DNA of 64,000 nucleotides from Elusimicrobiota bacterium (GTDB lineage Bacteria; Elusimicrobiota; Elusimicrobia; UBA1565; UBA9628), in the NCBI GenBank assembly GCA_035534315.1, contig DATLSD010000006.1, positions 10,839 to 74,838 of the forward strand. The letters are read 5' to 3'. Numbering within the stretch: the first letter of the stretch is position 1; every line of letters begins with the position of its first letter. The position numbers and the translations under genes are program-made. Below the pieces are notes generated by a model. That model saw only the letters and a program-made list of their open reading frames with translations. It had not been told where the DNA came from and did no database searches. This document shows positions 919 to 21,777 of this stretch, one piece after another.

Positions 919-3126
919 TCACTGCACCCCGGCCAGCCGCGCGTAGGCGCCGCCTTGCGCCTTTAACTCGTCGTGGGTGCCGCGCTCGACCGTCTTGCCG
1001 TCCTCGAGCACGATAATCTCATCGGCGTCGCGCACCGTGCTCAGACGGTGAGCGATAATGATGCAGGTGCATCCCCGGCGGCGCAGATTGTCGTCGATGA
1101 TTTTTTCCGTCACGGTATCCAAGGCGCTGGTGGCCTCGTCCAGGACCAGCACGCGCGGGTTCAAGACCAAAGCCCGCGCGATTTCCAGGCGCTGGCGCTG
1201 GCCGCCGCTCAAATTGGCGCCGCCCTCCTCCAAAACCGCGTCATAGCCGCCCGCGCGCGCGACGATGTCGTTATGGATGCAGGCATCCCGGGCAGCGGCG
1301 ACAATTTGATCCTCGGGCACGGTGTCATCCCAAAGGGTCAGGTTGTCGCGCACCGTGCCGGCAAAAAGCGCGATGTCCTGGTCCACGAAGGCCACCGAGT
1401 TGGCTAAAAGCGCGCGCGGCAGTTTCTCCCGCGGCACGCCGTCGAAAAGGATGTCGCCGCTCCAAGGCGGGTAAAGACCCGTGAGTATTTTTGAAATGGT
1501 GGATTTGCCGCAGCCGCTGGGCCCGACCAGCGCCACGCGGCTGCCGGGCTTAAGCGATAGGCTGAAGTCCTCAATGAGCGGCTCGGAAAGCCGTGAATAG
1601 CCGAAGGTCAGGCCGCGCAAGTCAACTTGACCCGAAAGTTTGGCCTGCGGCGGTTCGGCCTCAGAGCCTGTGGGCTCCGCCTCCGCCGAAGCCGCAGGAT
1701 CGGCCGGATAGGCCATGACGTCGTCCAGGCGGTTCATGTCGCCCTCGAATTCTTGGAACGTGCCCATGAGGTTGACGGTGCGATTGACCGGATCGATGAA
1801 GCTCGCCATGAGGCTCTGGAACGCGACCAAAAGGCCCAGCGTCATGTGCCCGCGCATGACGCTCAAGCCTCCGAAAGCCAGCACCGCGGCCGTGGCCAGG
1901 GCCTGCAAGAGCGGCGGAATCTGCAGGAAAGGCTGGGTGACCTCGTTCAACTGGAGAGTGTAGCTCACCAGCTTGGCCTGATAGCCGGCCCAGGTGGAGA
2001 AAAAATCCGACTCCCCCCCGGTCGCCTTCAGGGTCTCGATGGCCTGCAGGCCGCCCATGGAAACGCCCATGAGCTTGCCCTGCTCGCGCACCAGGCGCCG
2101 GTTTCCATCGACGCGCTTTCTTTGGATAGCGCGCGCGGCGGCGTAGTTGGCGCCCAAGGCTCCGATGGCGATCAATGTCAAAAGCGGGTTGATGGCGAAC
2201 ATCAGGGCCGCATAGAAGACGACCATGACCAGGTCAACCGCGGCCCCGGCCATGTCGGAGGCCATGATGTGGGCCAGGCGCTTGTTGATGGCCACGCGGT
2301 TGGCGATGTCGCCGCAGAAGCGCTGCGCGTAGAAGTCCACGGGCAGGCGCAGCACGTGCCAGAGAAATTTTCCGGAGCCCGAGACCGAGAGCTTGGTCTC
2401 CAGGCGGTTCAAGTAGTATTTCTGCAGCCAGGTAAGCGCCCCGCGCATGACGGCGGTGATGAGCATTCCCAGCAAGAGGGGCTTGATCCAGTCCGTCATC
2501 TGGAGCACGAGGTAATCGTCCACGAAGATGCGGATGAAGGTGGGGATGACCAGGCCCGGCACGACCAGGGCCAGGCCGGCGATGATGATGTAGGAAAGCG
2601 CCTCCTTGGAGGATTCCATGCGCTGGCGCAAGCCCGGCCACATGGATGGTTTCACGCCGCCCTTCTTGAACTCAGGGCCCGGCTTGAAGGCCAGCGTCAC
2701 GCCGGTGAAGGACTCGTCGAATTCCTCGTCTGAAACCGCGCGCGGGCCGACCGCCGGATCGGCGAGATGGACTACGCCCTTGCCGAAGCCCTCGACCACC
2801 AAGAAGTGGTTGAAGTTCCAGAACACGATGACCGGCAGGGCCATCTGCCGCAGTTCCTGCGGTTCTTTGCGGTAGCCCGTCGCTTCAAGCCCGTAGGCGC
2901 GCGCCGCGCGAAGGACGTTGCGGGCGTTGCTGCCGTCGCGGGAGACGCCGCAGGCCTTGCGCAGTTCCTCCAAGGGAACGTAGCGCCCGTAATAACCCAG
3001 CACCATGGCCAGGGACGCCGCCCCGCACTCGACCGCCTCCATCTGCAGGACGGTCGGCACGCGGGCCCGGCTCGGCCGCCCGAAAATCCGCGCGACCGGC
3101 TCAAGCAGGGATTTAGGAAGAGGCAC
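919..3126 (-). CDS. Bacteriocin/NHLP-type ABC transporter with N-terminal C39 peptidase domain, permease and ATPase
   Basis: 735 aa. C39 Cys motif (ECGAASLAMVLGYYG) sits at the N-terminus, a TM region in the middle, and Walker A GPSGCGKST plus LSGGQRQRLEIARAL at the C-terminus. Confidence 0.9.
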   Translation of the reverse strand: MPLPKSLLEPVARIFGRPSRARVPTVLQMEAVECGAASLAMVLGYYGRYVPLEELRKACGVSRDGSNARNVLRAARAYGLEATGYRKEPQELRQMALPVIVFWNFNHFLVVEGFGKGVVHLADPAVGPRAVSDEEFDESFTGVTLAFKPGPEFKKGGVKPSMWPGLRQRMESSKEALSYIIIAGLALVVPGLVIPTFIRIFVDDYLVLQMTDWIKPLLLGMLITAVMRGALTWLQKYYLNRLETKLSVSGSGKFLWHVLRLPVDFYAQRFCGDIANRVAINKRLAHIMASDMAGAAVDLVMVVFYAALMFAINPLLTLIAIGALGANYAAARAIQRKRVDGNRRLVREQGKLMGVSMGGLQAIETLKATGGESDFFSTWAGYQAKLVSYTLQLNEVTQPFLQIPPLLQALATAAVLAFGGLSVMRGHMTLGLLVAFQSLMASFIDPVNRTVNLMGTFQEFEGDMNRLDDVMAYPADPAASAEAEPTGSEAEPPQAKLSGQVDLRGLTFGYSRLSEPLIEDFSLSLKPGSRVALVGPSGCGKSTISKILTGLYPPWSGDILFDGVPREKLPRALLANSVAFVDQDIALFAGTVRDNLTLWDDTVPEDQIVAAARDACIHNDIVARAGGYDAVLEEGGANLSGGQRQRLEIARALVLNPRVLVLDEATSALDTVTEKIIDDNLRRRGCTCIIIAHRLSTVRDADEIIVLEDGKTVERGTHDELKAQGGAYARLAGVQ

Positions 3127-3133
3127 GTTGGGA

Positions 3134-4210
3134 TCAGAGCCCGAGCAGCGACTTCATCGCCGGGATGACCAAGGTGATGGGCCGGCGCTTCTTGACGATA
3201 ATGCGCACGTCGCACATCATGCCGGCCTTGATCTTCAGTTGGGGCCCCTCCGAGGAAGACCAGCGGTAGCCGCTGAAGTTGTTGGAATCCTTGTCCAGCG
3301 ATATCCTTAAAATGTAGGGAGCGCCGCCCGAAGTGAGCTCCTGGTCTAGAATGTTGTTGCGCGTAAGCTCGAAAATCATCTGTTCGCGCGCGGGAAATTC
3401 GGAGACGTAGTAGACTTGGCCCGTGAGATAGCCGTACTCTTCCTTCTTAATGATGCGCGGCGAAACCTCGGCGGCCATCCCGGGCTTGGCCTGGTTGCCC
3501 ACGCTGGGGATGAACGCGATGGCGTTGAGACTTTGCCCCTCATCGACGTAGGTCATAAGGAAGGCGCCCTTCTGGATGAGCGTTCCGGGCGAGGTCATGA
3601 CCTCGACGATGCGCCCGCTCTTGGGGGCAATGACATCGGTGGCCTCTTTAAGCTCCATGCCGTTTAGGGCCAGCTGGTTTTGCAGGGACTTGAGGCTGGT
3701 TTGCGCCCGGGCCAAGTTCTGCTTCGCGGTCTCAAGCACGTCGGGCGCGATGAGGCCGTCCTTGAGCGCCACCTGCATCGCGCGCACCTGCCGGTCCAGG
3801 CTGCGGATATGCTCCTGGGTCGCCGCGATGCTTTGGTTTATTTCGCCCGCGGAGCGCGCGCCCTTTTGCGCCATGCTGCTTTGATCCAAAGTCGCCACGA
3901 CCTCGTCCTTGGTGACCAAGTCCCCCTCGGCGACGAAAATCTGCTTGACGATGCCGGTCCCGGGCGAGTAGATATTGTCGACGCCTCGCGGCGGCATGAT
4001 GATGGCCGGACCCGAGATGGTGGTGGGGATGCTTCCCAGCACGGACCAAATGAGCGCCAAAACGATGAGGGCGCACAGCGTCCACAAGGCGTACCAGCCC
4101 TTGGGCGTGGTCACCTGCATCAGGTAGTCGAGCTGCTCGGGCGTGGAGAGCCGCTCCAAGGAAGCCTTTCGGAATATCTCTTGCTCGGCCATGGGGTTGA
4201 ATCTTAACAC
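3134..4210 (-). CDS. HlyD-family secretion adaptor of the bacteriocin export system
   Basis: 358 aa with an N-terminal TM and a long coiled-coil; 8 nt upstream of the ABC exporter. Confidence 0.8.
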   Translation of the reverse strand: MLRFNPMAEQEIFRKASLERLSTPEQLDYLMQVTTPKGWYALWTLCALIVLALIWSVLGSIPTTISGPAIIMPPRGVDNIYSPGTGIVKQIFVAEGDLVTKDEVVATLDQSSMAQKGARSAGEINQSIAATQEHIRSLDRQVRAMQVALKDGLIAPDVLETAKQNLARAQTSLKSLQNQLALNGMELKEATDVIAPKSGRIVEVMTSPGTLIQKGAFLMTYVDEGQSLNAIAFIPSVGNQAKPGMAAEVSPRIIKKEEYGYLTGQVYYVSEFPAREQMIFELTRNNILDQELTSGGAPYILRISLDKDSNNFSGYRWSSSEGPQLKIKAGMMCDVRIIVKKRRPITLVIPAMKSLLGL

Positions 4211-7200: not shown

Positions 7201-7391
7201 GCGGGAGAAAAATCGCGAAACGTCTTGCGAAGCTCCAAAAGGCCGGGCGCCAGCGGATCGATGGCCGCGCGCCAAGCCTCTTCGTCAGCGCCGCTCGAGC
7301 CGCCGACGGAGAGCCGCTCGGACAAGGAGCGCGCCTTGGGCACGAGCGCCTGGACGAAGACCTCCGGCGGGGCCGCGGACGCCGTGCTCAC
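4227..7391 (-). CDS. Class II lanthipeptide synthetase (LanM; dehydratase plus LanC-like cyclase)
   Basis: 1054 aa. N-domain carries YKPKP and DLHHEN motifs. C-domain carries GFAHGAAG, SWCGGAAG (WCxG) and HLCCGEAG, a CCG motif rather than CHG, as in ProcM. Confidence 0.85.
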   Translation of the reverse strand: MSTASAAPPEVFVQALVPKARSLSERLSVGGSSGADEEAWRAAIDPLAPGLLELRKTFRDFSPADESWVPAAVDIIDFLSCGREKPQRDAEQDAAALPGADIPFGPVWSALTEHELARLKGACAAAVPEAPLAPQAWRDIGRDLLRNLCGASAYCLAAEFAVFRGLEGAELSGFDPDSDAAFRAFVHRFLAEDFRAFFEEYPALLRVMAVLLENWRRNAALFVSRLAEDWPELAKIFAASDMFRRISRAEFGVSDPHEGGKTVALLELDGGGRFLYKPKPLAAEAWFCAYLDRLDAAGFVSGLGRLRVLDRGGYGYCAFARRADFTEEAQVRKYFRSGGELLFHMYLLGASDLHHENIVATAAGPYPIDLETLCCPRPRLGEGAFDAANLAQHRFFFESVVRTALLPRYEFLGGGRILESSGLAGGSAEESGEALRWEFANRDRMRVAKVRVRIESSANKPLLNGRPVAAADFLDDIESGFAAAYRQALRPEFRRAVSAALESLENLPTRFILRNTRVYAHMLQKSLEPAALKDGAAQGFVFEPLWRALSGVEDEKERQSLGLSAVEEIRALSCRDVPVFKTAPGHDYASCGGRRILVMNEAPLDLVRKRLAALDEADLARQSRFLRASFFTPKAAPAKLVPGGEAGAAEDFNPDVMQDFVLNLADDLLESALTTAGDEAWWLSMCYDERSRNWQYGPVGGRLFDGALGIALFLAAAHKLGKNPRTRGVALATARLVARDSRRYGMERLTRGMGLGIGTGAASLSYGLSAIGRILGEESLIAEAAQLAAALSPKYLSSEDARRTDLLGGIPGALLALDALPGAPPTDLAGELDRRREEIGNEFLAASRSLFNDIASGRAQRPELGFAHGAAGAAYVCARMSKRGGPWAEISRDLAELCASSYDAEAGNWPDWRDFGQGDKPRFVLSWCGGAAGVGLGLLETGRILGLDFSRAARWAAAAVERYADEPAVDHLCCGEAGAALFLARAARALSDEALTRQARHKIARVVSRARRGALRLGFDGGPPNPGFFQGQAGVGYAAARFLLDDLPEVEAFA

Positions 7392-8119
7392 GGCCCTTCC
7401 CGCCGCAGCCGCCAGGCCTCGGGATCGCGCGCGATAGCGTCCAAAAAGGCGAGATGGTTCGTGTGGTTGACGAAATTAAAGCTCAGGGTGACGGAGGGTT
7501 CTAGGCTCTGCGCCGAGTGCACGCGGCCGGCGGGGATCAAGAGCACGTCGCCGGGCTCGAGTTCCACGTCTTCGCTTGCGGCCAGGCCCTCCGCTCCGGC
7601 CAGACCGCGCAGGCTCACGCGCTTGCGGCCGACGAGCTGCGCCAGCCAGGCGTGCGTGGAGAACAAATCCGCGTGCGGCAGGGTTTCGGTGCCCGCCGGG
7701 CCGATGAAAAGCCAGCCGAATTTGCGCAGGTACCAGCTCTTCTGCGCGGGCGCGCGGAAGTCGAGCAGCGTGCGGCAGAACTCGGGAAACGCGAAGTCTT
7801 TAAGAAGCTCGGGATGATCCGCGAAGGGAGAATACTGCAGGGTGTACCACCGAGGCTCCTCAGCCGGGCCGGCTCCGCTTAAAATCCAATCGATGAATTC
7901 GGCCAAGCGCATCTTCTTGCCGCGCTTGGTCGCGCCGATTTTATCGCCCACGACCACCTCGTCTTGTCCCAACCTTTCGCGCAGAAACTTCCAGTTCCAG
8001 CGCTCGAACGCCCTCCAGCGCTTGGCGTAGCCCTTGAAGAGCGCCGGAATGCCCGGCGCGGAGAGCAGAGAGCGCTCGGCTTCCTCGGCGGAAATTTCCT
8101 CGCTGAATATCCGGATCAT
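7388..8119 (-). CDS. JmjC/cupin-like Fe(II)/2-oxoglutarate-type oxygenase, a candidate peptide hydroxylase
   Basis: 243 aa. HxD (LPHAD) followed by a distal His (RVHSAQ) in a cupin-sized protein; 4-nt overlap with the lanM start. Confidence 0.55.
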   Translation of the reverse strand: MIRIFSEEISAEEAERSLLSAPGIPALFKGYAKRWRAFERWNWKFLRERLGQDEVVVGDKIGATKRGKKMRLAEFIDWILSGAGPAEEPRWYTLQYSPFADHPELLKDFAFPEFCRTLLDFRAPAQKSWYLRKFGWLFIGPAGTETLPHADLFSTHAWLAQLVGRKRVSLRGLAGAEGLAASEDVELEPGDVLLIPAGRVHSAQSLEPSVTLSFNFVNHTNHLAFLDAIARDPEAWRLRREGP

Positions 8120-9018
8120 GACGGCGCGCCGGAAGCGAAAGCCGAGCGGCGGCGGATGTCCGCGCTAAAGCGCTCCTTCAAGATGCCTGAAAGCCTTTCC
8201 AGCAGCCGATCGCAGAGGTCGCGCGGGGTATAACCGGAAATCCGCGAGAGGCTCACGCCGATGAACCGGCAGTCCATCTCCGTGTCCTTAAGCCACGCGC
8301 CGAAGCGCTCCATCCGGGCGAAGGCTTCCTCATCGGTGGCGGTGCGGCCCTCGCCGCGCCCGTCCGAGCGGCCGAAGACCAGCAAATGCTTGTTCTCCGG
8401 CGTGACGGAAGGGCTTACGGGAGCGCCGGGCGAAATGCGCAGAAGATGATACGGATTGTTCTTAAAGCGCTCGTACTCTTCCGCAGTGACCTCAAGAGCG
8501 ACGGGATCTCGCTCCGGAGTCAGATTGCAGGAGAAATAGTCCAAGCAGATATCGAGCGCTACGGGGTATTGCGGCCGGATGTCTGAAAGGTTCTTCACCC
8601 GCGCGAAGCGCGCCTGGGCGGCGTCGGGCTTGCCCTGGAGATCGGGCGGCAGCGGCCCCCTGGCCCAGACCATGGCCCGGCGCTGGGCGTCGGTGGTGAA
8701 AATGCAGACCGAGCCGTCGTAAGGCAGGGTGGCCTCGTGCTCGCGGTGCCACCACACCTCGCTGAAAAACCCGTGAAGCACGGCGGGCCAGATAAAATTC
8801 GCGATGTTGAGTTCCTTCAGGATGAAGGCGCGGGTTTCTTCGAGACCGGCGCCCGGTTCCAGCATCGGGCCCTGCAGCGTCGGGAGATCCATGTCCGAGT
8901 GCTCGTCGATATGGACCAGCGAACTGCCGCGGGCGGGAAGAACGCCCTTGGCCGCGGCTTCCTTCCAAAAATAAAACGCCTCGTGGTGTTCCTCAAAAAC
9001 GACGCAGGGGACGGGCAT
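8116..9018 (-). CDS. Hypothetical tailoring protein, possibly UPF0489-like (arginase/deacetylase-related fold)
   Basis: 300 aa. The N-terminal PVPCVVFEEHHEAFYFW motif is reminiscent of the UPF0489 family, from memory only. Translationally coupled on both sides. Confidence 0.3.
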   Translation of the reverse strand: MPVPCVVFEEHHEAFYFWKEAAAKGVLPARGSSLVHIDEHSDMDLPTLQGPMLEPGAGLEETRAFILKELNIANFIWPAVLHGFFSEVWWHREHEATLPYDGSVCIFTTDAQRRAMVWARGPLPPDLQGKPDAAQARFARVKNLSDIRPQYPVALDICLDYFSCNLTPERDPVALEVTAEEYERFKNNPYHLLRISPGAPVSPSVTPENKHLLVFGRSDGRGEGRTATDEEAFARMERFGAWLKDTEMDCRFIGVSLSRISGYTPRDLCDRLLERLSGILKERFSADIRRRSAFASGAPS

Positions 9019-9953
9019 CAGCTCCGCGCGGAGGCCAGCGGAACTTCAAGCCCGCGCAAGGTCCAGGTCTTGTCCAGACAGGGCACCAGGTGCTTGTTTA
9101 ATGAGCGCAGCCACTCCGGATACTCCAAGGGGACGTCGAACTCCGCGCAGCTGGGCGCGCCTTCCTTCAGAAACATCTCGTAGTGCGCGTTCATGGCCGC
9201 GCGCAACAGCAGGACCGCGGCGGCGCGGTGGCGCGCGGCGAAGGCCGGATCGACCCAGAACTTGGTGTAGTAAAGAGTATCGGGCTTCTCAGCGAAGCGA
9301 TGGGTCGCGAACCAGCCCTTAGCCTCGCCCCCCGAGAACAGCATCTGGCTCGTCGACCAGTCGATTTCATTCTCACGAAAGCGCACGCTTAGATGCGCGG
9401 GCGCCCCGGCGCGCGAACCCCGCTCGATGGGGTCGAGCCCCTCGGCGCGGGCCTTGGTCCAGGAAATCACGCGCCAATCGGCGGCCGCGGACTCGCCGGC
9501 GCCCTTGGCCCAGCGCGGAATATTCGCGATGCGGCTCTGGCCGAAGAAAATGCGCGTAAAGGGCGTCCCGCAGCCGGCGCGAACGATGGTTTTTTCGACG
9601 GCCTCAAGCCCCGAAATGCGGCTGCCATAATTGACGGAGAGGCGCTCGAGTCCTGGCCGGCGCGAAAGCTCTTCTATTAGGCGGCGCAAAAGCGCGGCGC
9701 CAAGCCCTTGCCGCCGCCGCCCGGGCAGGACATAGACCGAGAGCAGCTCGGCCTTGCGCTCCGCGGGTTCGAGCCTCGCCAGCGCGAGCCCCTCCGGCTC
9801 CCCGCCCAATCCGAGCGCGGCCGCGGCCAGCCAAGAAAATTCCTTCCTTGCGACGCCCTGGGCGAAAGAAGGGTAGGTGAAACCGGCCCAAGGCGAAAAA
9901 TCCGTCCCGGGCCCCAAGGTGGAAAGCTGTCCGGAATTTAAAATGGCGGTCAT
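9018..9953 (-). CDS. GNAT-family N-acetyltransferase
   Basis: 311 aa with GNAT motif A (RRRQGLGAALLRRLIEE); 1-nt overlap with the next gene. Confidence 0.6.
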   Translation of the reverse strand: MTAILNSGQLSTLGPGTDFSPWAGFTYPSFAQGVARKEFSWLAAAALGLGGEPEGLALARLEPAERKAELLSVYVLPGRRRQGLGAALLRRLIEELSRRPGLERLSVNYGSRISGLEAVEKTIVRAGCGTPFTRIFFGQSRIANIPRWAKGAGESAAADWRVISWTKARAEGLDPIERGSRAGAPAHLSVRFRENEIDWSTSQMLFSGGEAKGWFATHRFAEKPDTLYYTKFWVDPAFAARHRAAAVLLLRAAMNAHYEMFLKEGAPSCAEFDVPLEYPEWLRSLNKHLVPCLDKTWTLRGLEVPLASARS

Positions 9954-10048: not shown

Positions 10049-10366
10049 CTACATGCTCATCATGACGCAGGCCGAGGAGCCGCCGCAGGTCGCGCCGCAG
10101 CGTCCGCCGCCGGCGACTTTCTCGAGCTCGCTGTCGGAAAGCTCGCCGCCCGTCTTGACCAGATCGGGCACCACGACCACCAAGTCGGCGCCGTTGCGCG
10201 CCACGGCCTTGATGTTGAAGCCTTGAGGAAGGTCCTTGCCGGAGACCTCCTTGACCGCCTTGACCGGATCCTTGAGCGCCAGCTCGCGGAACTTCGCGTC
10301 CGTCGAAGCCTTGCGCGAAAATGCCTCCAAGGCCTTTTTCTGCTCGTCTTGTGTCCAGGGTTTCAT
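10049..10366 (-). CDS. NHLP-leader lanthipeptide precursor A (core GRCGATCGGSSACVMMSM)
   Basis: 105 aa. The leader matches the nitrile-hydratase-leader pattern (FRELALKDP...ELSDSELEKVAGG). The core has 3 Cys and several Ser/Thr, and an AGGAGA RBS is present. Confidence 0.85.
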   Translation of the reverse strand: MKPWTQDEQKKALEAFSRKASTDAKFRELALKDPVKAVKEVSGKDLPQGFNIKAVARNGADLVVVVPDLVKTGGELSDSELEKVAGGGRCGATCGGSSACVMMSM

Positions 10367-10431
10367 CGTTTTCTCCTTGAATAATCTAAACGGCTCTTCG
10401 TCTTCGTTTAATTGATGCGAGAGCGCGCCCT

Positions 10432-10794
10432 TTAGACGCAGGCGCCGCCCACGCCCGGCACGTACGTTGGTCCCGGAGGCACCGTGGACGAAACTAGGCA
10501 GACCTGGCTGATGCCGCAGCTTCCCGCGCAGCGGCCGCCCGCGACCTTCTCAAGCTCGCTGTCGGAAAGCTCGCCGCCCGTCTTGACCAGATCGGGAACC
10601 ACGAGCACCATGTCCACGCCGTCCCGCGCCACGGCAGCAAGCTTGAAGTCCGGCGGCAGCTCCTTGCCGGAGACTTCCTTGACCGCCTTGGCCGGGTCCT
10701 TAAGCGCCAGTTCCCGGAACTTCGCGTCCGTCGAGGCCTTGCGCGCGAACGCCTCCAAGGCCTTTTTCTTCTCGTCCTGAGTCCAAGGTTTCAT
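10432..10794 (-). CDS. NHLP-leader lanthipeptide precursor B (core RCAGSCGISQVCLVSSTVPPGPTYVPGVGGACV)
   Basis: An internal start (MKPWTQDEKKK) lies inside the 249-aa track ORF, giving 120 aa. The leader is about 90% identical to precursor A, and a GGAG RBS sits upstream of the ATG at 10794. Confidence 0.85.
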   Translation of the reverse strand: MKPWTQDEKKKALEAFARKASTDAKFRELALKDPAKAVKEVSGKELPPDFKLAAVARDGVDMVLVVPDLVKTGGELSDSELEKVAGGRCAGSCGISQVCLVSSTVPPGPTYVPGVGGACV

Positions 10795-10804
10795 TGATTT
10801 CTCC

Positions 10805-11509
10805 TTAATCCAAGCGCAGCTTAAAATTGTCCGGCAGGCTCCGGCCCAGCACCTCGGCGGCCGCCGCCCGCGGATTCGACATGAATTTCTCGCGAAAACC
10901 GGGTTGGGAGGCGGCGCGCTTGGCGACGGCGCGGCGGAGGCACGCCAGTTCAAACTCGCTTGGAAGCGGCGCGGCGGGGAATGCCTCCCCCTCGCCAAAT
11001 CGCGCGACGCGTTCGGCCAGAATTTCGCGCCAGAACTCGCGCGCGGACTGGAGATTATCGGCGAAACTTTGGGAAAAAGCCGGGGCCGGAATTTTTTCGG
11101 CGCCTTCGCCCAACAGCGAGTTGAAATGGGCAAGCCCTTCTCGAAGCCTTTTCGATTCCGCCGCGTCCGCCCGCCCGTCAAGCCTTCTCGCGTCGAAAGC
11201 GGCGCACCGGGCTTGGGCTCCGGGCGTGAAAATGGGAGTAAAGCGTCCGCGCGCGGCGGAAATTTCCATCAAGTCGAACAGGAATTCTCCGCTTGAAACG
11301 CGCAAAAGTCGGTGGCGCCGGATAAAGACGCCGCTGTCGGCGTCGCGGCGCGCTAAAAATAGGTCGAGCCGGCCCTCAAGAACCAGCCACGCCCGGCCTT
11401 CGGATCCGCACTGCACGTAGGGGACGCCGGCGGGAAGTTCCTGTCCGATGTCCTCGATTCTCGACGGCGTGGCCTCGGACGCTCCAATCATCGGAGGGGA
11501 TGTTATCAT
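10805..11509 (-). CDS. Hypothetical protein: cNMP-binding-like N-domain fused to a C-terminal NHLP-leader-like segment with no core
   Basis: 234 aa. The N-terminus (VQCGSEGRAWLVLEGRLDLFLA) resembles the N-terminus of the partial gene at 1..911. The C-terminus (FREKFMSNPRAAAAEVLGRSLPDNFKL) aligns with the precursor leaders. Confidence 0.5.
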   Translation of the reverse strand: MITSPPMIGASEATPSRIEDIGQELPAGVPYVQCGSEGRAWLVLEGRLDLFLARRDADSGVFIRRHRLLRVSSGEFLFDLMEISAARGRFTPIFTPGAQARCAAFDARRLDGRADAAESKRLREGLAHFNSLLGEGAEKIPAPAFSQSFADNLQSAREFWREILAERVARFGEGEAFPAAPLPSEFELACLRRAVAKRAASQPGFREKFMSNPRAAAAEVLGRSLPDNFKLRLD

Positions 11510-11525
11510 ATTCCTAAAATAAGAT

Positions 11526-12554
11526 TTAGCGGCCGAAAAAGGCCCAGGCCGCGGCCGCGTTGCACAGCAAATAGGCCGCCGGATAAAGCGCGCGGGAGAA
11601 GGACCGGATGCGCGCCGCGGCTTTCGCGGAGCGACCGTCCGCGACGCGGTGAACGATGACGATTTCCACGATAGTAACGGCGGAAAAGACGAAGCCGATG
11701 AGGAAAAAAGCGTCGATATAGGTCAAGTACGGCAGGTGCGGCAGGCTGCCTGAAATCACGAAGAGAAAGGCGATCATGGTCAGGGCGGCGCTCAGGGCCA
11801 CGGAGAACTGGGCGGCCGTGTCGGTTTCCTTAATCCAAAGAGCGCAATAAGAAACGATGACCATGATAAAGAGCGGCAGAAAGACTTTCCAGATGTAGTA
11901 GCCGTAGCGCCGCTTGATGACCATGTTGAAGTCGATTTCCGGGATGCTGCCGCCCTTGCCGCCCAAGACTGACTCGGCCGGCACGGCCCGCATTCCCAAC
12001 ATTTTCCATTGCGCCAAGAGGGCCCAGGGCTGGCTGTTGATGCCGGTCTGTCCCGCATCAGGGACAAGCGCAACCGCATCCCGCTCATCCAAGAACGGTT
12101 GAAGCACCACGGGCAGGACCTGCTCGTCAAATGGAAAACGGTGGAAGGTCATCTGCATGGTCAGGTCGTCCTCGAAATCTTCCCAGAAAACAACCGTGCC
12201 GTCGGGATGCCGGCGGATGTTGGTTCCCAGCTTGAAGAGCCCGTTGACCGCGTTAGCCATGACGATGTTGGGCGTCCAAATTTTTTCCGGGTCGCACAGC
12301 CGGTCCGTGTCCTTGGCGCCGCGCGGCGCATACTTAAGACGGGAATCTTTCCATTGTTCGTAGAGATAGCCGCGGACGCGGAAGGTTTCCCCGACCTCGT
12401 CCACGCCGACCAAGTCGGTCACGTAGACGCCCACCTTGACCGGCACCCGCCCGTTTCTGCCCGGCGGCGGCGCGATAGAGGCGGCCGAGGAAGGCCGCAG
12501 GCTCAGGCCCAAGGATAAAATCAGGAACAACGCCGGGATTCTCGCGCGCCTCAT
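11526..12554 (-). CDS. Prokaryotic pentameric ligand-gated ion channel (Cys-loop receptor family homolog)
   Basis: A signal peptide from internal Met MRRARIPALF precedes the ligand-binding-domain pattern VKVGVYVTDLVGVDEVGETFRVRGYLYEQWKDSRLKY. There are four C-terminal TM helices. The track ORF (to 12806) carries an implausible N-extension. Confidence 0.7.
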   Translation of the reverse strand: MRRARIPALFLILSLGLSLRPSSAASIAPPPGRNGRVPVKVGVYVTDLVGVDEVGETFRVRGYLYEQWKDSRLKYAPRGAKDTDRLCDPEKIWTPNIVMANAVNGLFKLGTNIRRHPDGTVVFWEDFEDDLTMQMTFHRFPFDEQVLPVVLQPFLDERDAVALVPDAGQTGINSQPWALLAQWKMLGMRAVPAESVLGGKGGSIPEIDFNMVIKRRYGYYIWKVFLPLFIMVIVSYCALWIKETDTAAQFSVALSAALTMIAFLFVISGSLPHLPYLTYIDAFFLIGFVFSAVTIVEIVIVHRVADGRSAKAAARIRSFSRALYPAAYLLCNAAAAWAFFGR

Positions 12555-12776
12555 CAAGCGGAGATTATATCCTAAAAATGCTATCGTGATCGTGATGTTC
12601 GTCCTTTTGTTGCACCGGAGCCGCCCATGAAAAAGCAGTGCGTCGCGATGACGTCCGTCACCACCTACTCCGCCGCCCACCGGTGTCTCAAGGGCGCCGA
12701 CGCCCCCAAAAGCGGCCGTCGCCGGCTCTGCGCCCATCACCGCGCCCAAGCCGTCCGCGCCGGAAGCAGGTAAGTT

Positions 12777-13706: not shown

Positions 13707-14391
<685 letters not shown>

Positions 14392-14402
<11 letters not shown>

Positions 14403-17064
14403 CCGGCTCTCCCAGCGGCAGCGAAAATTTAAAAGAAGCGCCGCCTCCTTCGCGGCTCTCGGCCCAGATGCGCCCGCCGTGCGCGTTCAAGACCGCCCGG
14501 CAGATCGCCAGGCCCAAGCCGGCGCCCTTCGAGCCCTTGGCGTGATAGAATTTTTCAAAAACTTTTTCGAGGTCCTCGGGCGGGACGCCCGGCCCGCGGT
14601 CGGCCACCTCGACGATCAAGCGATCTTTTTCGGCCCGCGCGGTGACGGCGATGGGTGTTCCCTCGGGGGTGTGCCGCGCCGCGTTCTCCAGGAGGTTCAT
14701 GAAAACCTGCTCGATGAGCACGCCGTCCATCGGAACCAGCGGCAGGTCGGGAGGCACGCTGGTCGTTATCTCCCGGCGCGCGAGCATCGCCTCAAGGCGC
14801 CCCAGGGCCGAGCCGGCGATCTCCTCGATGGAGCCGGGCTCCTTGCGCAGCGCCACCGCGCCCGTTTCAAGGCGCGTGGTCTCGATGAGATTGGCGACCA
14901 AACGCGCCAGCCACTGGCCCTCCTCGATGACATTCTCCACGAGCTCGCGAGCCTTGTGCGTCAGCGGAGCGCCCGCATCCTGAAGCAGGCTCGTGGCCGA
15001 GCCGATGATGGCGGCTAAAGGCGTGCGCAAATCATGCGAAACTGACGAGAGCAGGGAACTGCGCAATCGCTCGGTCTCGGCGTCGATTTGCGACTGGCGC
15101 GCGCTTTCCTGGAGACGATCGACCTCGAGTGCCAGGCCGATTTGATGAGCGAAGGATTCCAGGAGCAGCATCTGATCGGGAATCAAAAGACGCTCCCGCG
15201 AGTGCGGCTGGACGCGGAGCACGCCCACGGGCCCCTCCGCGCCGGTCAAGGGCGCGTAGAGCGCGTTGACCACGGGCAGGGTCTGCGTGCCCAGTCCGGC
15301 CGACTGCCCCAGATCAAACACCCACTGCGCGACGCTGCGCTCCTTTTCATCGAGTTCCCGCTTGGCGCCCGAGGCGCTGCGGACTTCCAGAGCCCCCCGT
15401 TCCCCTTGCATGAGCGCGATGATGTCGCTGTCGAAAACCTCCGCGACATGGCGCGCCGCCACATCCAAAATAGCCTGCACGCCGCGCGTGCCGGCGAGCT
15501 CGCGGCTCAGGGAGTGCATCGCGGCCGTACGCATCTCTCCCAGGCGCGCCGACTCGGCCTGGGCTTGGATGCGCACGGTCAGCCCCGAGATGAAGAGCGC
15601 CACCGCCGCCATGACGACGAAGGTCACCAGGTAATCCCCGCTGCTCACGCTGAATGTAAAGCGCGGAGGCACGAAGAAGAAGTCGAAGCAGAGCACGGCC
15701 AGGATGGAGTAGAGCGCCGCGGGGCGGCGATGCCCGCGGGAAGCCACCAGCACGGCGCCGGCCAGGTAGAGCATGATGAGATCGGTCAGCGCCAAGTACG
15801 GGGAGACGAGAAAATCCAAGAGAGTGACCGCGGCCGCGGCGCCCGCCGCGACTACGTATTCCCACGGCGGCGTTTCCGGCTTCTTGGCCAATGCGGACGG
15901 AGCCGGTTCGGCGGCCGGGCCCTCTCCGCGGATGACGTAGACGTCGATGTCTCCGCTTTTCTGCACCAATTGATCGACGATGCTGCCGCGCAAGATCTCC
16001 TTCCAGCGCTGCCGCGCGCTCTTTCCTACCACGAGCTTGGTGACGTTGCGCTGCCGGGCCAAATCCAGCATGCCCTCGACCACGTCGCGTGTCGTCAGCG
16101 TGAGGGTCTGGGCGCCTAATTGTCCGGCCAAGCGCAGATTGTCGATGGCGCTGCTGCGCGCCGTCTCGGAGAGCCGCTGGGCCTGGGAATCAACGAAGAC
16201 GGCCAGCCACTCGGCGTGAAGGCCCGCGGCCATGCGCCGGGTTGCGCGGACGAGCTTCGCGGAACTGGGCCCGGGACCGACCGCGACCAGAAGCCGTTCG
16301 CGCGTGGGCCAGATGGCCTCGGGGGCTTGGCGGCGGCGGTAGGATTCCACCACAGCGGCCACGCCCTCGGCCGTGGCGCGCAGGGAGAGCTCGCGCAGCG
16401 CGGACAAATTGGACATCTTGAAGAAGCTCTGCACCGCGCGTTCGGCCATGTCGGGGACGTAGACCTTGCCCTCCTTCAAGCGATCCAAAAGCTCCTCGGG
16501 CGGCAAGTCGACCAGCTCGACGTCGGCGCGCTCCAAGACGGAGTCCGGCACGGTCTCGCGCACGATGACGCCCGTAATGCGCGCGACGATGTCGTTCAAG
16601 GTCTCCAAATGCTGGATGTTGAGAGTCGTGTAGACGTCGATGCCGCGATCCAGAAGCTCCAACACGTCTTGCCAGCGTTTGGAATGGCGGCTTCCCGGAG
16701 CGTTGGTATGCGCGAGTTCATCGACGAGAAGAAGCCCGGGCCTGCGCGCCAGGGCCGCGTCGATGTCGAAATCGTAGAGCTTGATGCCCCGGTGTTCGCC
16801 GACGCGGCGGGGTAGGACTTCCAGACCGTCGAGCAGTTCCCGGGTCTCGCGGCGGCCATGGGTCTCCGCCAGGCCCACGGCCACGTCCTCGCCATCGTTT
16901 TTCTTGATGCGCGCCGCCTGGAGCATGGCGTAGGTCTTGCCCACGCCGGGCGCGGCGCCGAGGAAAATCTTAAGCCTGCCGCCGACGCCGCGGGTCTCGT
17001 CCTGGCGCGCCTCGGGCAGGAAGGCTTCGGGTTCCGGGCGTTTTCGCTCTCTGGGCATTTTCAT
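14392..17064 (-). CDS. kdpD: Sensor histidine kinase KdpD
   Basis: 890 aa. An N-terminal KdpD/P-loop domain (GAAPGVGKTYAML) is followed by USP and TM regions, a GAF domain, the HisKA motif (SHDLRTPL) and an HATPase domain. Confidence 0.9.
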
Positions 17065-17114
17065 CTACTTAAATAACATGTTTGCGCCACCGACGCAATG
17101 AGACGGGGGCGAGA

Positions 17115-17732
17115 TCATCTTCCTCGGGCCCGGCGGGAAGATCGGATCATCCGCCGCAAGCTTTCGTTGAGCATCAGGACGTTGACCCGCGGTTCTCCGA
17201 AAATTCCCAGCGCGCGGCCTTGAACGCGCTTGAGAACGAGGGCGCGCACGGCCGCTTCGGAGATTCCATAGCGCCGGACGGCGGCCGCCACGCGCGGCAG
17301 CTGCCAGAGGGCCGCGGCCGGGCTGATGTCGGGATCAAGCCCGCTGCCCGAGGCGGTCACGAGCTCCGGCGGAATGGGCGCCGCGTTACCGGGCTCGGAG
17401 GCGCGCAGGGCGCCGACACGGGCTTGGACGCTTTGAAGCAGCGCGGGGTTGGTCGGACCGAGATTCGAGCCCGAGGAAGACGCCGCGTTGTAGGGAAACG
17501 GCGTCGTCGCCGAGGGGCGGCTCCAGAAGTACATGGGACTTGAGAACGACTGGCCGATAAGCTCCGAGCCCGCGACCTTGCCGTCTTGGACGATGAGGCT
17601 GCCGTTGGCCTGCCAAGGAAACAGGAACTGGGCCAGGCCGGTCACCAGAGCCGGATAAGCGAGTCCGGTCAGGATGGAGAAGGCCGCGAACATCAGCGCC
17701 GCCGGCCGGAGTTGGCTGAGAAGTGTTTTCAT
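17115..17732 (-). CDS. kdpC: Potassium-transporting ATPase subunit C
   Basis: 205 aa with a single N-terminal TM; sits between kdpB and kdpD. Confidence 0.9.
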   Translation of the reverse strand: MKTLLSQLRPAALMFAAFSILTGLAYPALVTGLAQFLFPWQANGSLIVQDGKVAGSELIGQSFSSPMYFWSRPSATTPFPYNAASSSGSNLGPTNPALLQSVQARVGALRASEPGNAAPIPPELVTASGSGLDPDISPAAALWQLPRVAAAVRRYGISEAAVRALVLKRVQGRALGIFGEPRVNVLMLNESLRRMIRSSRRARGR

Positions 17733-17744
17733 GTCGATTCCTCG

Positions 17745-19817
<2,073 letters not shown>

Positions 19818-19818
19818 T

Positions 19819-21585
19819 TTAGCGCGCCCCCATCATCATGAGATGCTCGGCGATCGGCCCAAGGGCCAGAGCGGGCACGAAGGTCAAGGCGCCGACGATG
19901 AGCACCACCGAGATCAGCAGCAGGACGAAGAGCGGCGTATGCGTCGGGAGCGTGCCCTCGCCCGCGGGCACGATCTTCTTGCGGGCAAGCGAGCCCGCGA
20001 TGGCCAGCGTCGGCACCATGATCCAAAAGCGGCCCATGAGCATGACGAAGCCGCCCAGGACATCGTAGAACGGCACGGCGGCGTTTAAGCCCGCGAAGGC
20101 GCTGCCGTTGTTGTTGGCCATGGAGGAGAACGCGTAGAGGATTTCGGAGAAACCGTGCGCGCCGGGGTTGGCCAAGGACGCCTTGGCCGCGGCGCTCACG
20201 ACGGCGATGGCCGTGGGCACGAGGACGATGATGGGCATAATGAGGATGACGACGGAGGCCATCTTCATCTCGTAGGCCCCGATTTTCTTGCCTAGGTATT
20301 CCGGCGTGCGGCCGACCATCAGCCCCGCGACAAAGACCGCGACCAAGACGAAGACGAGCATGCCGTAGAGCCCGCAGCCTATGCCTCCGAAAATGACCTC
20401 GCCAAGCTCGATGAGGAAGAGCGGCACCATCCCGCCCAAGGGCGTGAACGAATCGTGCATCGAGTTGACCGAGCCGTTGGAAGCCGCGGTCGTGGCCGCG
20501 GCCCACAGCGCGGAGTCCGTGACGCCGAAGCGCGCCTCCTTACCCTCCATGTTGCCTCCGGGCGAGGCGGCCAAGCCTTCCTGCGCGGCCGTGCTCACGC
20601 CCATCTTGGCGATGAGCGGATTGCCCTTCTGTTCGCTCACGGTGCACAGGACCAGCAAGGGAATCAGGATAAGCGTCATGGCGGCCATGATCGCCCAGCC
20701 CTGTCTGCGGTCTTCGACCATGACGCCGAACATCACGCAGCAAGCGGCGCCTAAGGCCAGGATGGCCCAGAGTTCTGCAAAGTCCGAGAGCGGCGTGGGG
20801 TTCTCGAAAGGATGCGCCGAGTTCACGTTGTAGTAGCCGCCGCCGTTGGTGCCGAGCTGTTTAATGGCGATCTGCGAGGCCACGGGACCAAGCGGCAGGC
20901 TCTGCTCCGCGGCCGTCGCGGTTTTTCCGTTGTCCTGATAAGAGACGGGCTCCATCATTGTCGCCTGGGCTGAGGGTCCGAAAGTCTGCGGCACGCCCTG
21001 CCAAACAAGGAACAGGGCCATGATGAATGAGAGCGGCAGCAGGATGTAGAGCGTCGAGCGCGTTAGGTCGGCCCAGAAGCTGCCCAGGTTCTCGGATTCC
21101 TTCCGGCGCAGAGCGCGGATGAAGGCGGCTAGCACGGCCATCGCGGTCGCCACCGACAGGAAGTTTTGCACGGTCAGGCCCAGCATCTGGGTCAGGTAGC
21201 TCATGGTGGTTTCGCCGCCGTAGTCCTGCCAATTGGTGTTGGTGGCGAAGCTCACCGCCGTGTTGAACGCGCTGTGCGGGATAACGGCTGCGAGCGCCAA
21301 GGGATTGAGAGGCAAGAATCCCTGCAGGCGCTCGAGCGCGTAGACCGCGAGCACGCCTAAGAAGTTAAAGGCGAGCGCCGCGGCAGCGTAGGTTTTCCAG
21401 CCCATGGCCTCGTCCGGATCGACGCCCGTCAAGCGGTAGAGCGCGCGCTCCACGGGGCCCAACACGCGGCCCAGCCAGCCCGGCTTGCCCTCATAGACGC
21501 GGGCCATATAGGGCCCGTAGATTGCCCCGAAGCCGATGACGGCGGCGAAATAGAGAACGTCCTGCGCTATGGCGTTTGTAGTCAT
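19819..21585 (-). CDS. kdpA: Potassium-transporting ATPase subunit A
   Basis: 588 aa polytopic membrane protein in the kdpFABC order. Confidence 0.95.
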
Positions 21586-21592
21586 GGTATCC

Positions 21593-21682
21593 TCAGAAGA
21601 GTTCCGGCTTGAACAAGGCGATGAATAGGTAGACGCACAACCCGCACGACAAGGCGAGCGCGACCCAATAAAGCACGGTCAT
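21593..21682 (-). CDS. kdpF: Potassium-transporting ATPase subunit F (29-aa micropeptide)
   Basis: Hand translation gives MTVLYWVALALSCGLCVYLFIALFKPELF, a single TM of KdpF-like length and ending, 7 nt upstream of kdpA. It is below the ORF-track size cutoff. Confidence 0.6.
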   Translation of the reverse strand: MTVLYWVALALSCGLCVYLFIALFKPELF

Positions 21683-21777
21683 GATGGACCTCCGGAAAGG
21701 CGATCGAAAAGCTCGACCATGATCCAAGTGACCGCGAAGAAGGCGGCGGTCAAGCCCAAGTACATGAGATCGTCCAT
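21679..21777 (-). CDS. Additional 32-aa hydrophobic micropeptide translationally coupled (ATGA) to kdpF
   Basis: Hand translation gives MDDLMYLGLTAAFFAVTWIMVELFDRLSGGPS. A strong AAGGAGAAAAAAC-ATG RBS precedes it. Confidence 0.35.
   Translation of the reverse strand: MDDLMYLGLTAAFFAVTWIMVELFDRLSGGPS

What the first reader, a model, noticed from the sequence alone, without database searches (positions are those of the whole stretch)
11526..12554. Pentameric ligand-gated ion channel encoded at the head of the lanthipeptide operon
A GLIC/ELIC-type channel gene ends 17 nt before the next cluster gene on the same strand. A ligand-gated channel co-transcribed with secreted modified peptides suggests the peptide, or a small molecule, may be its ligand. 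It could serve signalling or immunity rather than simple antibiosis. pLGICs are not a usual component of RiPP clusters.
Basis: inference. Interest (0 to 1): 0.6.

Follow-up and report, generated by a model that had tools for sequence, protein, structure and literature searches.

The report
Ion-channel gene heading a lipolanthipeptide cluster
A real GLIC-like ligand-gated ion channel gene heads a lipidated-lanthipeptide (selidamide-type) gene cluster in an Elusimicrobiota genome, and related genomes keep the same channel next to the same cluster in other arrangements, which hints at a functional link that no experiment has yet tested.

Summary
Window 11526..12554 (-) encodes a 342-aa prokaryotic pentameric ligand-gated ion channel (pLGIC). 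It passes both Pfam domains, aligns end to end with GLIC (E 3e-43) and has dN/dS 0.11-0.13. The next same-strand ORF starts 16 nt downstream, and no terminator lies between them. A TTTTAGGATATAAT motif lies 8-9 nt upstream of the start codon; it is identical in three genomes, although one of them has an unrelated upstream flank.

The cluster is selidamide/phaeornamide-type. It has two NHLP precursors with Arg-1 cores, a GNAT, a peptide arginase, a JmjC hydroxylase, LanM and the exporter genes HlyD-ABC1-ABC2-OEP.

The linkage is not limited to the closest genomes. pLGIC orthologues at 56-59% identity also lie beside orthologous cluster genes. One overlaps the exporter's OEP gene at the tail. 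Another is convergent with LanM, with the stop codons 7 nt apart. No other flanking gene is shared.

The linkage is absent elsewhere. Among 73 other genome loci carrying a pLGIC homologue, none has a homologue of any cluster-specific gene within 10 kb. Two clade members and a 35%-identity sister cluster also show none in the sequence available.

Functional coupling is plausible (about 0.55). The idea that the peptide gates the channel is untested (about 0.15).

The parts
12564..12577 (-). Conserved TTTTAGGATATAAT motif (-10-like TATAAT) ending 9 nt upstream of the pLGIC ATG; candidate promoter giving a leaderless or near-leaderless mRNA
   Evidence: Identical in window, L001 and L004 although the sequence further upstream in L004 is unrelated. 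It is the only exact match in the window; 3 matches at up to 3 mismatches against 0.55 expected. L005 and L009 orthologues carry GGATTTG(C/G)TAAGCT 7 nt before their ATG. Promoter function is inferred, not shown.
11526..12554 (-). pLGIC gene, 342 aa: signal peptide (by inspection), periplasmic ligand-binding domain, four transmembrane helices M1-M4
11510..11525 (-). 16-nt spacer between the pLGIC stop and the next ORF; it and the first codons of that ORF read TTTTAGGAATATGAT, and the TATGAT is conserved in all three genomes
   Evidence: No terminator was found. A possible internal -10 element cannot be separated from coding constraint.
10805..11509 (-). 234-aa fusion ORF. Residues 29-105 are 52% identical to the N-terminus of the ABC2 exporter of a related cluster. 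Residues 184-233 are 54% identical to the 75-aa NHLP-leader-like protein that follows ABC2 in that cluster.
   Evidence: The ORF is intact in L001/L002/L004 with dN/dS 0.27-0.32. Weak TIGR03793 hit at residues 192-232.
10432..10794 (-). NHLP precursor 1 (120 aa), core RCAGSCGISQVCLVSSTVPPGPTYVPGVGGACV after a GG motif
   Evidence: TIGR03793 E 8e-11; sequence
10049..10366 (-). NHLP precursor 2 (105 aa), core RCGATCGGSSACVMMSM after a GGG motif
   Evidence: TIGR03793 E 8.5e-12; sequence
9018..9953 (-). GNAT acyltransferase, occupying the place of PhaN/KspN in the pha/ksp clusters
   Evidence: Pfam Acetyltransf_1 E 1.3e-11; cluster comparison with PMC8784127
8116..9018 (-). Peptide arginase (Arg to Orn)
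   Evidence: Pfam UPF0489 E 1.1e-16. NCBIfam pept_arginase FlmR/OhkR E 2.3e-52, below that model's cut-off.
7388..8119 (-). Cupin/JmjC Fe(II)/2-oxoglutarate-type hydroxylase (the same Pfam family, PF08007, as PhaI)
   Evidence: Cupin_8 E 7e-17, JmjC_2 E 5e-7; PMC8784127
4227..7391 (-). Class II lanthipeptide synthetase LanM
   Evidence: TIGR03897 E 2.6e-170, above cut-off; Pfam DUF4135 and LANC_like
3134..4210 (-). NHLP-system HlyD-type adaptor
   Evidence: TIGR03794 E 2.2e-79, above cut-off
919..3126 (-). ABC1: C39 peptidase/permease/ATPase exporter
   Evidence: TIGR03796, 1097.6 bits, above cut-off
1..911 (-). 5' part of ABC2, the second exporter subunit, cut by the window edge. In the same genome (L018) it is followed by an OEP (outer-membrane efflux protein, TolC-like) gene, a C1 peptidase and a beta-lactamase-fold gene.
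   Evidence: Translation; gene order in L018 and L019

Best explanation
Shown: the gene encodes a genuine, selectively maintained GLIC-like pLGIC. Inferred: it is the promoter-proximal gene of a roughly 21-kb same-strand array that makes and exports a selidamide (phaeornamide-type) lipolanthipeptide. In that pathway Arg-1 of each core would be converted to ornithine, hydroxylated and fatty-acylated; LanM would form the thioether rings; and HlyD-ABC1-ABC2-OEP would export the product. Inferred: the channel is an accessory gene of this cluster lineage rather than a chance neighbour. The linkage goes back to the common ancestor of a seven-member pLGIC clade and has survived at least three different arrangements. 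The mechanism I commit to is as follows. The channel's periplasmic domain senses an extracellular or envelope chemical cue tied to production. The most economical candidate is the exported amphiphilic lipopeptide itself, or a condition it creates. The channel then converts that cue into ion flux across the inner membrane, giving the producer feedback or protection while it secretes a lipopeptide whose characterised relative depolarises membranes. The agonist, the ion selectivity and the cellular output are all unknown.
For: Identity. Selection: dN/dS 0.11-0.13.

Operon geometry: spacers of 16 nt and 10 nt lead to the first precursor, with no terminator. A conserved TATAAT motif lies directly upstream, and the synteny break in L004 falls just upstream of it.

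Cluster type: the gene set matches the pha cluster, namely NHLP precursor, GNAT, PF12640 arginase, PF08007 hydroxylase and LanM.

Linkage across rearrangements:
- Arrangement A (head position): window, L001-L003, and L004/L017/L020.
- Arrangement B: L010 carries an ABC2 C-terminus (71% identity), an OEP (51%) and the pLGIC (58-59%) with 4-nt gene overlaps. L012 comes from the same sample and carries the rest of the orthologous cluster (LanM 49%). GC content is 0.695 and 0.696, and the tetranucleotide correlation is 0.98-0.99, the highest for either contig.
- Arrangement C: in L007/L008 the pLGIC (56-58%) ends 7 nt from the stop codon of a convergent LanM that is 52% identical to the window's.

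No other flanking gene of these contigs has a homologue in the 64-kb window. Neighbour-joining tree: the seven proteins form one clade (bootstrap 0.99), and the cluster-linked members fall on both sides of its root. The LanM clade at 49% identity or more consists only of these lineages, so every known orthologous cluster has the channel beside it.

A characterised selidamide-family peptide depolarises membranes (PMC13060382).
Against: The association is limited to one narrow clade. None of 73 other pLGIC-bearing genome loci has a homologue of any cluster-specific gene within 10 kb, and neither does a 48%-identity homologue. Two clade members show no cluster gene in view. L005 has 7.3 kb upstream and 3.6 kb downstream; L009 has 7.6 kb upstream and 0.4 kb downstream. 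The next-closest cluster type (L013-L016, LanM 35%) shows no pLGIC in the sequence available. The characterised selidamide paper does not mention ion channels. In arrangement C the channel belongs to a Cache/cyclase sensory operon, a context already known for bacterial pLGICs (PMC549065), and it is only convergent with LanM. The junction in this window borders a gene-fusion scar, so the head position is a product of rearrangement. Only three independent arrangements are known. All come from related organisms, so shared ancestry plus local shuffling is a viable alternative. There are no expression or physiological data.
Confidence: 0.55

Rival explanations
1. Neutral neighbour. The channel is an independent chemosensory or pH-gated pLGIC, of the kind found with Cache and solute-binding-protein genes. 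It was adjacent to the cluster in an ancestor and has stayed near it through local rearrangements. Read-through from its promoter into the RiPP genes would be incidental.
For: pLGIC homologues occur in many unrelated contexts. The L007 operon (dCache, then dCache-HAMP-cyclase, then pLGIC) and the two solute-binding-protein genes in L005 match contexts reported by Tasneem et al. (PMC549065). A cyclase is also next to the channel in L009, 78% identical to the L007 cyclase. L005 keeps the pLGIC next to a C1 peptidase without the cluster. The fusion remnant at the junction shows the head of the cluster was remodelled. A conserved TATGAT at the start of the next ORF could be a separate promoter for the RiPP genes.
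Against: General synteny has been lost: no other flank gene is shared, and the upstream flank already differs within arrangement A. Even so, the channel still touches a cluster gene in three arrangements. Two of these have operon-type spacing: 16 nt at the head, and a 4-nt overlap with OEP at the tail.
Confidence: 0.35
2. One reading: the mature lipolanthipeptide, or a pathway intermediate, is the agonist of the channel, forming an autocrine or quorum-type sensing loop. This is a sub-case of the best explanation.
For: The ligand-binding domain faces the periplasm, which the exported product must cross or could re-enter. The cluster has no LanRK-type sensor gene. Cores and channel are both conserved between arrangements A and B. 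The linkage evidence is as above.
Against: To my knowledge, no pLGIC with a peptide agonist has been described; known prokaryotic agonists and modulators are protons, primary amines, pH and Ca2+ (background knowledge; ELIC amines in PMC3119659, listed). A channel has no obvious route to transcriptional output. Nothing in the sequence points to a peptide-binding site.
Confidence: 0.15
3. Self-protection. The channel offsets the producer's own membrane-active lipopeptide, for example by adjusting ion balance or membrane potential, and so stands in for the missing LanI/LanFEG immunity genes.
For: No recognisable immunity gene is present in the cluster. Nostolysamide C, from the same RiPP family, depolarises membranes. 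In arrangement B the channel gene overlaps the exporter's OEP gene, which suggests translational coupling.
Against: Opening an ion channel would normally depolarise the cell, not protect it. I know of no precedent for channel-based lantibiotic immunity. Producers with an outer membrane and a complete three-part exporter often lack dedicated immunity genes (background knowledge).
Confidence: 0.08
4. The ORF is a decaying or mis-called gene.
For: None beyond the 426-aa maximal ORF that extends to an upstream TTG.
Against: It matches GLIC over its full length. dN/dS is 0.11-0.13. The ATG and the signal peptide are conserved across orthologues.
Confidence: 0.01

Closest known systems
GLIC (Gloeobacter violaceus proton-gated pLGIC; PDB 3eam, 4hfi and others)
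   Same: Same minimal architecture and length. The two align end to end (E 3e-43, about 28% identity). The FPFD motif of the beta6-beta7 loop, the M1 proline, the LPxxPY M2-M3 loop and the equivalent of Glu35 (Glu56) are conserved.
   Different: GLIC His235 (M2 11') is Met260 here, and GLIC Glu222 (-2') is Ala247, with an invariant Asp245 two residues earlier. Proton gating and cation selectivity therefore cannot be carried over from GLIC. The protein scores below the NCBIfam LGIC_1 and TIGR00860 cut-offs. GLIC's genomic context was not examined here.
Bacterial pLGICs in predicted operons with Cache or periplasmic-binding-protein genes (Tasneem et al. 2004, PMC549065)
   Same: Clade members L007 (two dCache genes and a cyclase upstream) and L005 (two solute-binding-protein genes downstream) reproduce these sensory contexts.
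   Different: In this window the partner genes are a RiPP biosynthesis and export cluster. That study and the literature searches report no such context.
Phaeornamide (pha) and kamptornamide (ksp) selidamide clusters (Hubrich et al. 2022, PMC8784127)
   Same: Same gene set: NHLP precursor, RiPP-type GNAT, PF12640 peptide arginase, PF08007 hydroxylase (as in pha), LanM and a C39-ABC exporter. The modifiable Arg sits at the start of the core.
   Different: This cluster has two precursors, a full HlyD-ABC1-ABC2-OEP exporter, the ABC2-N/leader-like fusion ORF, and a pLGIC at the head. The paper's main text does not mention an ion channel. No product has been characterised for this cluster.
Standard accessory genes of lanthipeptide clusters (LanRK two-component sensors, LanI/LanFEG immunity)
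   Same: The channel occupies the kind of position, promoter-proximal or flanking the cluster, where regulatory and immunity genes usually sit.
   Different: It has no homology to them and works in a completely different way, as a channel rather than a kinase or ABC pump. The KdpDE genes upstream belong to the kdpFABC potassium-uptake operon, not to the cluster.

Membership tests
Pentameric ligand-gated ion channel (Cys-loop/pLGIC superfamily) | N-terminal extracellular beta-sandwich ligand-binding domain (Pfam PF02931) | tested here: met
   E 3.1e-22, 79.5 bits against a cut-off of 26, residues 32-217. The AF2 model has beta strands there, but at low confidence.
Pentameric ligand-gated ion channel (Cys-loop/pLGIC superfamily) | Four transmembrane helices M1-M4 after the ligand-binding domain (PF02932) | tested here: met
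   38.4 bits against a cut-off of 28.1. Helices at 218-240, 246-270, 279-307 and 310-340, with block-mean pLDDT mostly 74-91.
Pentameric ligand-gated ion channel (Cys-loop/pLGIC superfamily) | Signature motifs: (F/Y)PxD in the beta6-beta7 loop, the M1 proline, and a conserved M2-M3 loop | tested here: met
   F140, P141, F142, D143, P227, L271 and P272 are invariant, and P275 and Y276 nearly invariant, across 37 homologues. They align with the GLIC motifs. The flanking cysteines are absent, as in other prokaryotic members.
Pentameric ligand-gated ion channel (Cys-loop/pLGIC superfamily) | Pentameric assembly and ligand-gated conductance | not testable with these tools
   Needs biochemistry or electrophysiology. 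Only a monomer could be modelled.
GLIC-type proton-gated cation channel (functional subtype) | Residues implicated in GLIC proton sensing and cation selectivity (Glu35, His235, Glu222 at -2'; the roles are from my background knowledge) | tested here: not met
   Glu35 is conserved as Glu56, but His235 is Met260 and Glu222 is Ala247. It should not be filed as a proton-gated GLIC orthologue.
NCBIfam LGIC_1 (NF033918) and TIGR00860 LIC subfamilies | Score at or above the curated cut-off | tested here: not met
   139.5 bits against 500, and 138.9 bits against 280.2. It is a superfamily member outside these curated subfamilies.
Selidamide (GNAT-lipidated lanthipeptide) biosynthetic cluster | NHLP/Nif11-type precursor together with a RiPP-associated GNAT and LanM; optionally a peptide arginase and a hydroxylase; Arg or Lys at the start of the core | tested here: met
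   HMM hits. Cores begin with Arg after GG/GGG. The gene set equals that of the pha cluster as described in PMC8784127. Whether the GNAT falls in the selidamide clade of the GNAT tree was not tested.
Selidamide (GNAT-lipidated lanthipeptide) biosynthetic cluster | The product carries a fatty acyl group on an Orn or Lys side chain | not testable with these tools
   Needs heterologous expression and mass spectrometry.
Genuine component of the RiPP cluster (functional co-membership) | Same-strand, operon-type spacing with no terminator | tested here: met
   16-nt spacer with no terminator. An internal promoter is not excluded.
Genuine component of the RiPP cluster (functional co-membership) | Co-occurrence with orthologous clusters across genomes, independent of flanking synteny | tested here: inconclusive
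   Present in arrangements A, B and C; these are all five known lineages whose LanM is at least 49% identical. Not seen for two pLGIC clade members, in the 35%-identity sister cluster, or in 73 other genome loci. The sample is small and the lineages are related.
Genuine component of the RiPP cluster (functional co-membership) | Co-transcription and a phenotype linked to the product | not testable with these tools
   Needs RNA-seq and genetics.

The most novel reading that the evidence does not exclude
This small Elusimicrobiota clade has a pLGIC whose native agonist or modulator is the lipolanthipeptide made by the adjacent genes. That would be the first prokaryotic pLGIC with an assigned physiological role. 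It would also be, to my knowledge, the first peptide- or RiPP-gated member of the superfamily: an autocrine loop in which a secreted peptide is read out as ion flux.
Probability: 0.15. Interest if true: 0.85.

Novelty: new variant of a known kind. Interest (0 to 1): 0.55.

Why it matters
To my knowledge, the native ligands and cellular roles of prokaryotic pLGICs are still unknown, even though GLIC and ELIC are the main structural models for neurotransmitter receptors. A channel that stays next to one biosynthetic cluster through several rearrangements provides a concrete, purifiable candidate ligand and a testable phenotype. Both halves of the experiment have established methods. Selidamides have been produced by co-expression in E. 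coli (PMC8784127), and ELIC has been characterised by electrophysiology (PMC3119659). If the link is real, ion channels join the kinds of accessory gene found in RiPP clusters, and it would suggest that peptide-to-channel signalling predates animals. If the link is not real, the locus is still a clear case of a neighbour persisting in a remodelled cluster, and a warning against reading function from a single genome's operon layout.

Tried and rejected
- A genome-contig scan with the window's LanM as a single protein found nothing.
- A metagenome scan with a LanM alignment returned only the lineages already known, plus one unrelated 29%-identity hit.
- An exact-sequence look-up of ABC1 failed, probably because the gene was called with a different start codon. 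I used the LanM look-up instead.
- A second protein search, using the L012 LanM, found no further cluster orthologues.
- I recalled that the N-terminal domain of NHLP-type ABC2 exporters is cyclic-nucleotide-binding-like, which would have tied the cyclase neighbours to the cluster. Pfam gave no such hit for either ABC2 or for the 234-aa ORF, even at E up to 1, so I dropped the idea.
- I checked whether the 1.4-kb gap between OEP and the C1 peptidase in L094 holds a pLGIC remnant. It holds an unrelated 442-aa ORF.
- The AlphaFold2 monomer model built from a 37-sequence alignment is poor in the extracellular domain (pLDDT 63). I used it only for helix count and fold family.
- Rfam and tRNA scans of the window were empty.
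- The promoter scan found nothing at the junctions. The conserved TATAAT motif came from the alignment instead.
- I could not reconstruct one rearrangement path that explains arrangements A, B and C and also the fusion ORF, so I make no claim about the order of events.
- No supplementary files were held for the selidamide paper.
Full report
**What is at the coordinates.**
Window 11526..12554 on the minus strand is an ATG-to-TAA ORF of 342 codons. It passes both Pfam pLGIC domains above their gathering scores: Neur_chan_LBD at 79.5 bits and Neur_chan_memb at 38.4 bits. It aligns over residues 28-341 with residues 7-316 of the Gloeobacter channel GLIC, E 3e-43. The family signatures are invariant in a 37-sequence alignment of homologues: FPFD in the beta6-beta7 loop, the M1 proline and the M2-M3 loop.

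An AlphaFold2 monomer model is weak in the extracellular domain (mean pLDDT 63). It does give four confident C-terminal helices, and its best structural matches are GLIC. Against two orthologues the gene has dN/dS 0.11 and 0.13 at dS 0.65 and 0.96, so it is a maintained gene.

It is not a close GLIC orthologue in functional terms. GLIC His235 is Met here, and the -2' Glu222 is Ala, with an invariant Asp two residues earlier. The protein also scores below the NCBIfam subfamily cut-offs. The agonist and the ion selectivity cannot be read from the sequence. The exact protein is on record as a hypothetical protein of an Elusimicrobiota MAG.

**The neighbours.**
Ten nucleotides after that ORF comes the first of two NHLP-leader precursors. 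Next are a GNAT, a peptide arginase, a cupin/JmjC hydroxylase, LanM, an NHLP-type HlyD adaptor, the C39-ABC exporter ABC1 and the start of ABC2 at the window edge. In the same genome the array continues with an OEP (outer-membrane efflux protein, TolC-like) gene. A C1 peptidase gene follows.

This gene set is that of the phaeornamide (pha) selidamide cluster: NHLP precursor, GNAT, PF12640 arginase, PF08007 hydroxylase and LanM (PMC8784127). Both cores begin with Arg straight after the GG motif, the position that is converted to ornithine and acylated in that family. The cluster is therefore a lipolanthipeptide (selidamide-type) pathway, not a generic lantibiotic one. A family member, nostolysamide C, depolarises membranes (PMC13060382).

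The 234-aa ORF is a scar. Its residues 29-105 match the N-terminus of the ABC2 exporter of a related cluster (52% identity). Its residues 184-233 match the 75-aa leader-like protein that follows ABC2 in that cluster (54% identity). It is intact in three genomes and has dN/dS about 0.3.

**Transcription signals.**
No terminator-like site lies between the channel gene and the next ORF. The GC stem over the stop codon is no more stable than shuffled sequence and is not conserved.

Upstream of the channel gene, TTTTAGGATATAAT ends 8-9 nt before the ATG. It is identical in the window, L001 and L004, although the sequence beyond it in L004 is unrelated. It is the only exact match in the window. Orthologues that head their own transcription unit carry TG(C/G)TAAGCT 7 nt before the ATG. 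The channel thus appears to have its own promoter, giving a near-leaderless mRNA, and read-through into the RiPP genes is likely.

One caveat applies. A conserved TATGAT overlaps the first codons of the 234-aa ORF and could be a second promoter. Coding constraint prevents a decision.

**Does the association hold elsewhere?**
The three closest channels (100%, 87% and 82% identity) are all at the head of the same cluster. In the 82% genome the upstream neighbours are GreA and ThiF/JAB/PALP. In the window those genes lie 33-46 kb away from the channel gene, so the rearrangement breakpoint falls just upstream of the channel's promoter motif and the channel stayed with the cluster.

The next relatives (56-61% identity) at first looked unlinked, but closer reading changed that.
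- In L010 the channel gene overlaps by 4 nt an OEP gene that is 51% identical to the cluster's OEP. Before the OEP gene lie the last 48 codons of an ABC transporter gene; 42 of them align at 71% identity with the cluster's ABC2.
- Contig L012, from the same sample, carries the rest of the orthologous cluster, from the end of precursor 1 through to the start of ABC1 (LanM 49%). It has the same GC content and the highest tetranucleotide correlation with L010 (0.98-0.99), even when only L010's non-homologous flank is used.
- In L007/L008 the channel is the last gene of an operon that also encodes a dCache protein and a dCache-HAMP-cyclase. It ends 7 nt from the stop codon of a convergent LanM that is 52% identical to the window's and 66% identical to L012's.

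The channel therefore touches orthologous cluster genes in three arrangements: head, tail and convergent. None of the other flanking genes of these contigs has a homologue anywhere in the 64-kb window. Two protein searches found no other LanM at 49% identity or more, so every known orthologous cluster has the channel beside it. In a neighbour-joining tree the seven channels form one clade (bootstrap 0.99), and cluster-linked members fall on both sides of its root. The linkage is therefore most simply ancestral to that clade.

**Limits of the association.**
Two clade members show no cluster gene in the sequence available. L005 has the channel followed by a C1 peptidase that is 52-55% identical to the one at the far end of the window genome's cluster. 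L009 has the channel convergent with a cyclase that is 78% identical to the L007 cyclase.

The next-closest cluster type (LanM 35% identity) runs OEP-like gene, HlyD, ABC1, ABC2, p75 (the 75-aa leader-like gene), three NHLP precursors, GNAT, arginase and LanM. It shows no channel in view.

A scan of species-representative genomes with a channel alignment returned 74 loci, mostly Binataceae at 29-47% identity. Apart from the Elusimicrobia genome already known, none has a homologue of any cluster-specific gene (LanM, NHLP precursor, GNAT, arginase, hydroxylase, HlyD, OEP) within 10 kb; a few have only generic ABC-transporter hits. A 48%-identity homologue on a 91-kb contig shows none either.

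Literature searches found no report of a pLGIC in a RiPP or other biosynthetic cluster. The known contextual partners of bacterial pLGICs are Cache and periplasmic-binding-protein genes (PMC549065), and L007 and L005 reproduce those contexts.

**Interpretation.**
The facts fit two readings.
- Functional coupling (about 0.55). Two independent operon-type fusions with the same cluster (head and tail), plus a third adjacency, have persisted while all other synteny was lost.
- Neutral neighbour (about 0.35). All cases come from one related group. One arrangement is only convergent and sits in a typical sensory operon. The head junction is visibly a product of rearrangement.

None of these can be tested with sequence alone. 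The experiments are straightforward and are listed under next steps.

**Verdict.**
The channel is a new member of a known superfamily, and the cluster is a member of the selidamide family. The recurring pairing of the two is, as far as these searches show, unreported.

Noticed in passing
window 10805..11509 (-): The 234-aa ORF between the channel gene and the precursors is a fusion of the first ~105 residues of an ABC2-type exporter with a core-less NHLP-leader-like protein (p75, a separate gene in L013). It is kept intact in three genomes with dN/dS about 0.3. It could be a rearrangement scar that acquired a function, for example as a leader mimic.
   Followed up: partly
window 12627..12773 (+): A 48-aa ORF (MKKQCVAMTSVTTYSAAHRCLKGADAPKSGRRRLCAHHRAQAVRAGSR) lies divergent from the channel gene, just upstream of the lipid A acyltransferase gene. 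It is also called as a gene in L001, L003 and L018. It has no Pfam hit.
   Followed up: partly
L007 2061..4867 and L009 7635..9094: The channel orthologues are also repeatedly next to a dCache-HAMP adenylate/guanylate cyclase. In L007 the cyclase is co-directional with a 4-nt overlap; in L009 it is convergent. The two cyclase C-termini are 78% identical. This is a second recurring partner of this channel clade.
   Followed up: partly
L018 19200..22053; L005 8624..9613; L010 144..1706: The OEP and C1 peptidase genes that close the cluster array in the window genome are direct neighbours of the channel in relatives (OEP then channel in L010; channel then C1 peptidase in L005). This suggests an ancestral order of ABC2, OEP, channel, C1 peptidase. 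I could not derive the present head position from that order in one step.
   Followed up: partly
window 11505..11519 (-): In this genome the spacer after the channel gene reads TTTTAGGAATATGAT. That nearly repeats the motif upstream of the channel gene (TTTTAGGATATAAT), with one extra base and one substitution. Only the TATGAT part is conserved in L001 and L017.
   Followed up: partly
window 10049..10794 (-): The two precursors have near-identical leaders but very different cores (33 and 17 residues), and there is a single LanM. Both cores are conserved in the distant relative L012. A two-peptide product is possible.
   Followed up: no
L094 14103..15431: In the 87%-identity lineage a 442-aa ORF is inserted between the OEP and C1 peptidase genes. 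It is absent at this position in the window genome. By eye it resembles a soluble beta-propeller dehydrogenase; this was not checked.
   Followed up: no
window 13707..21727 and 25348..30930: A complete kdpFABC-kdpDE potassium-uptake locus lies next to the cluster, after the lipid A acyltransferase gene. A DabA gene (Pfam E 3e-229) followed by a Proton_antipo_M-family membrane gene, consistent with a DabA/DabB inorganic-carbon uptake pair, lies further on. These look like ordinary housekeeping genes with no apparent tie to the finding.
   Followed up: partly
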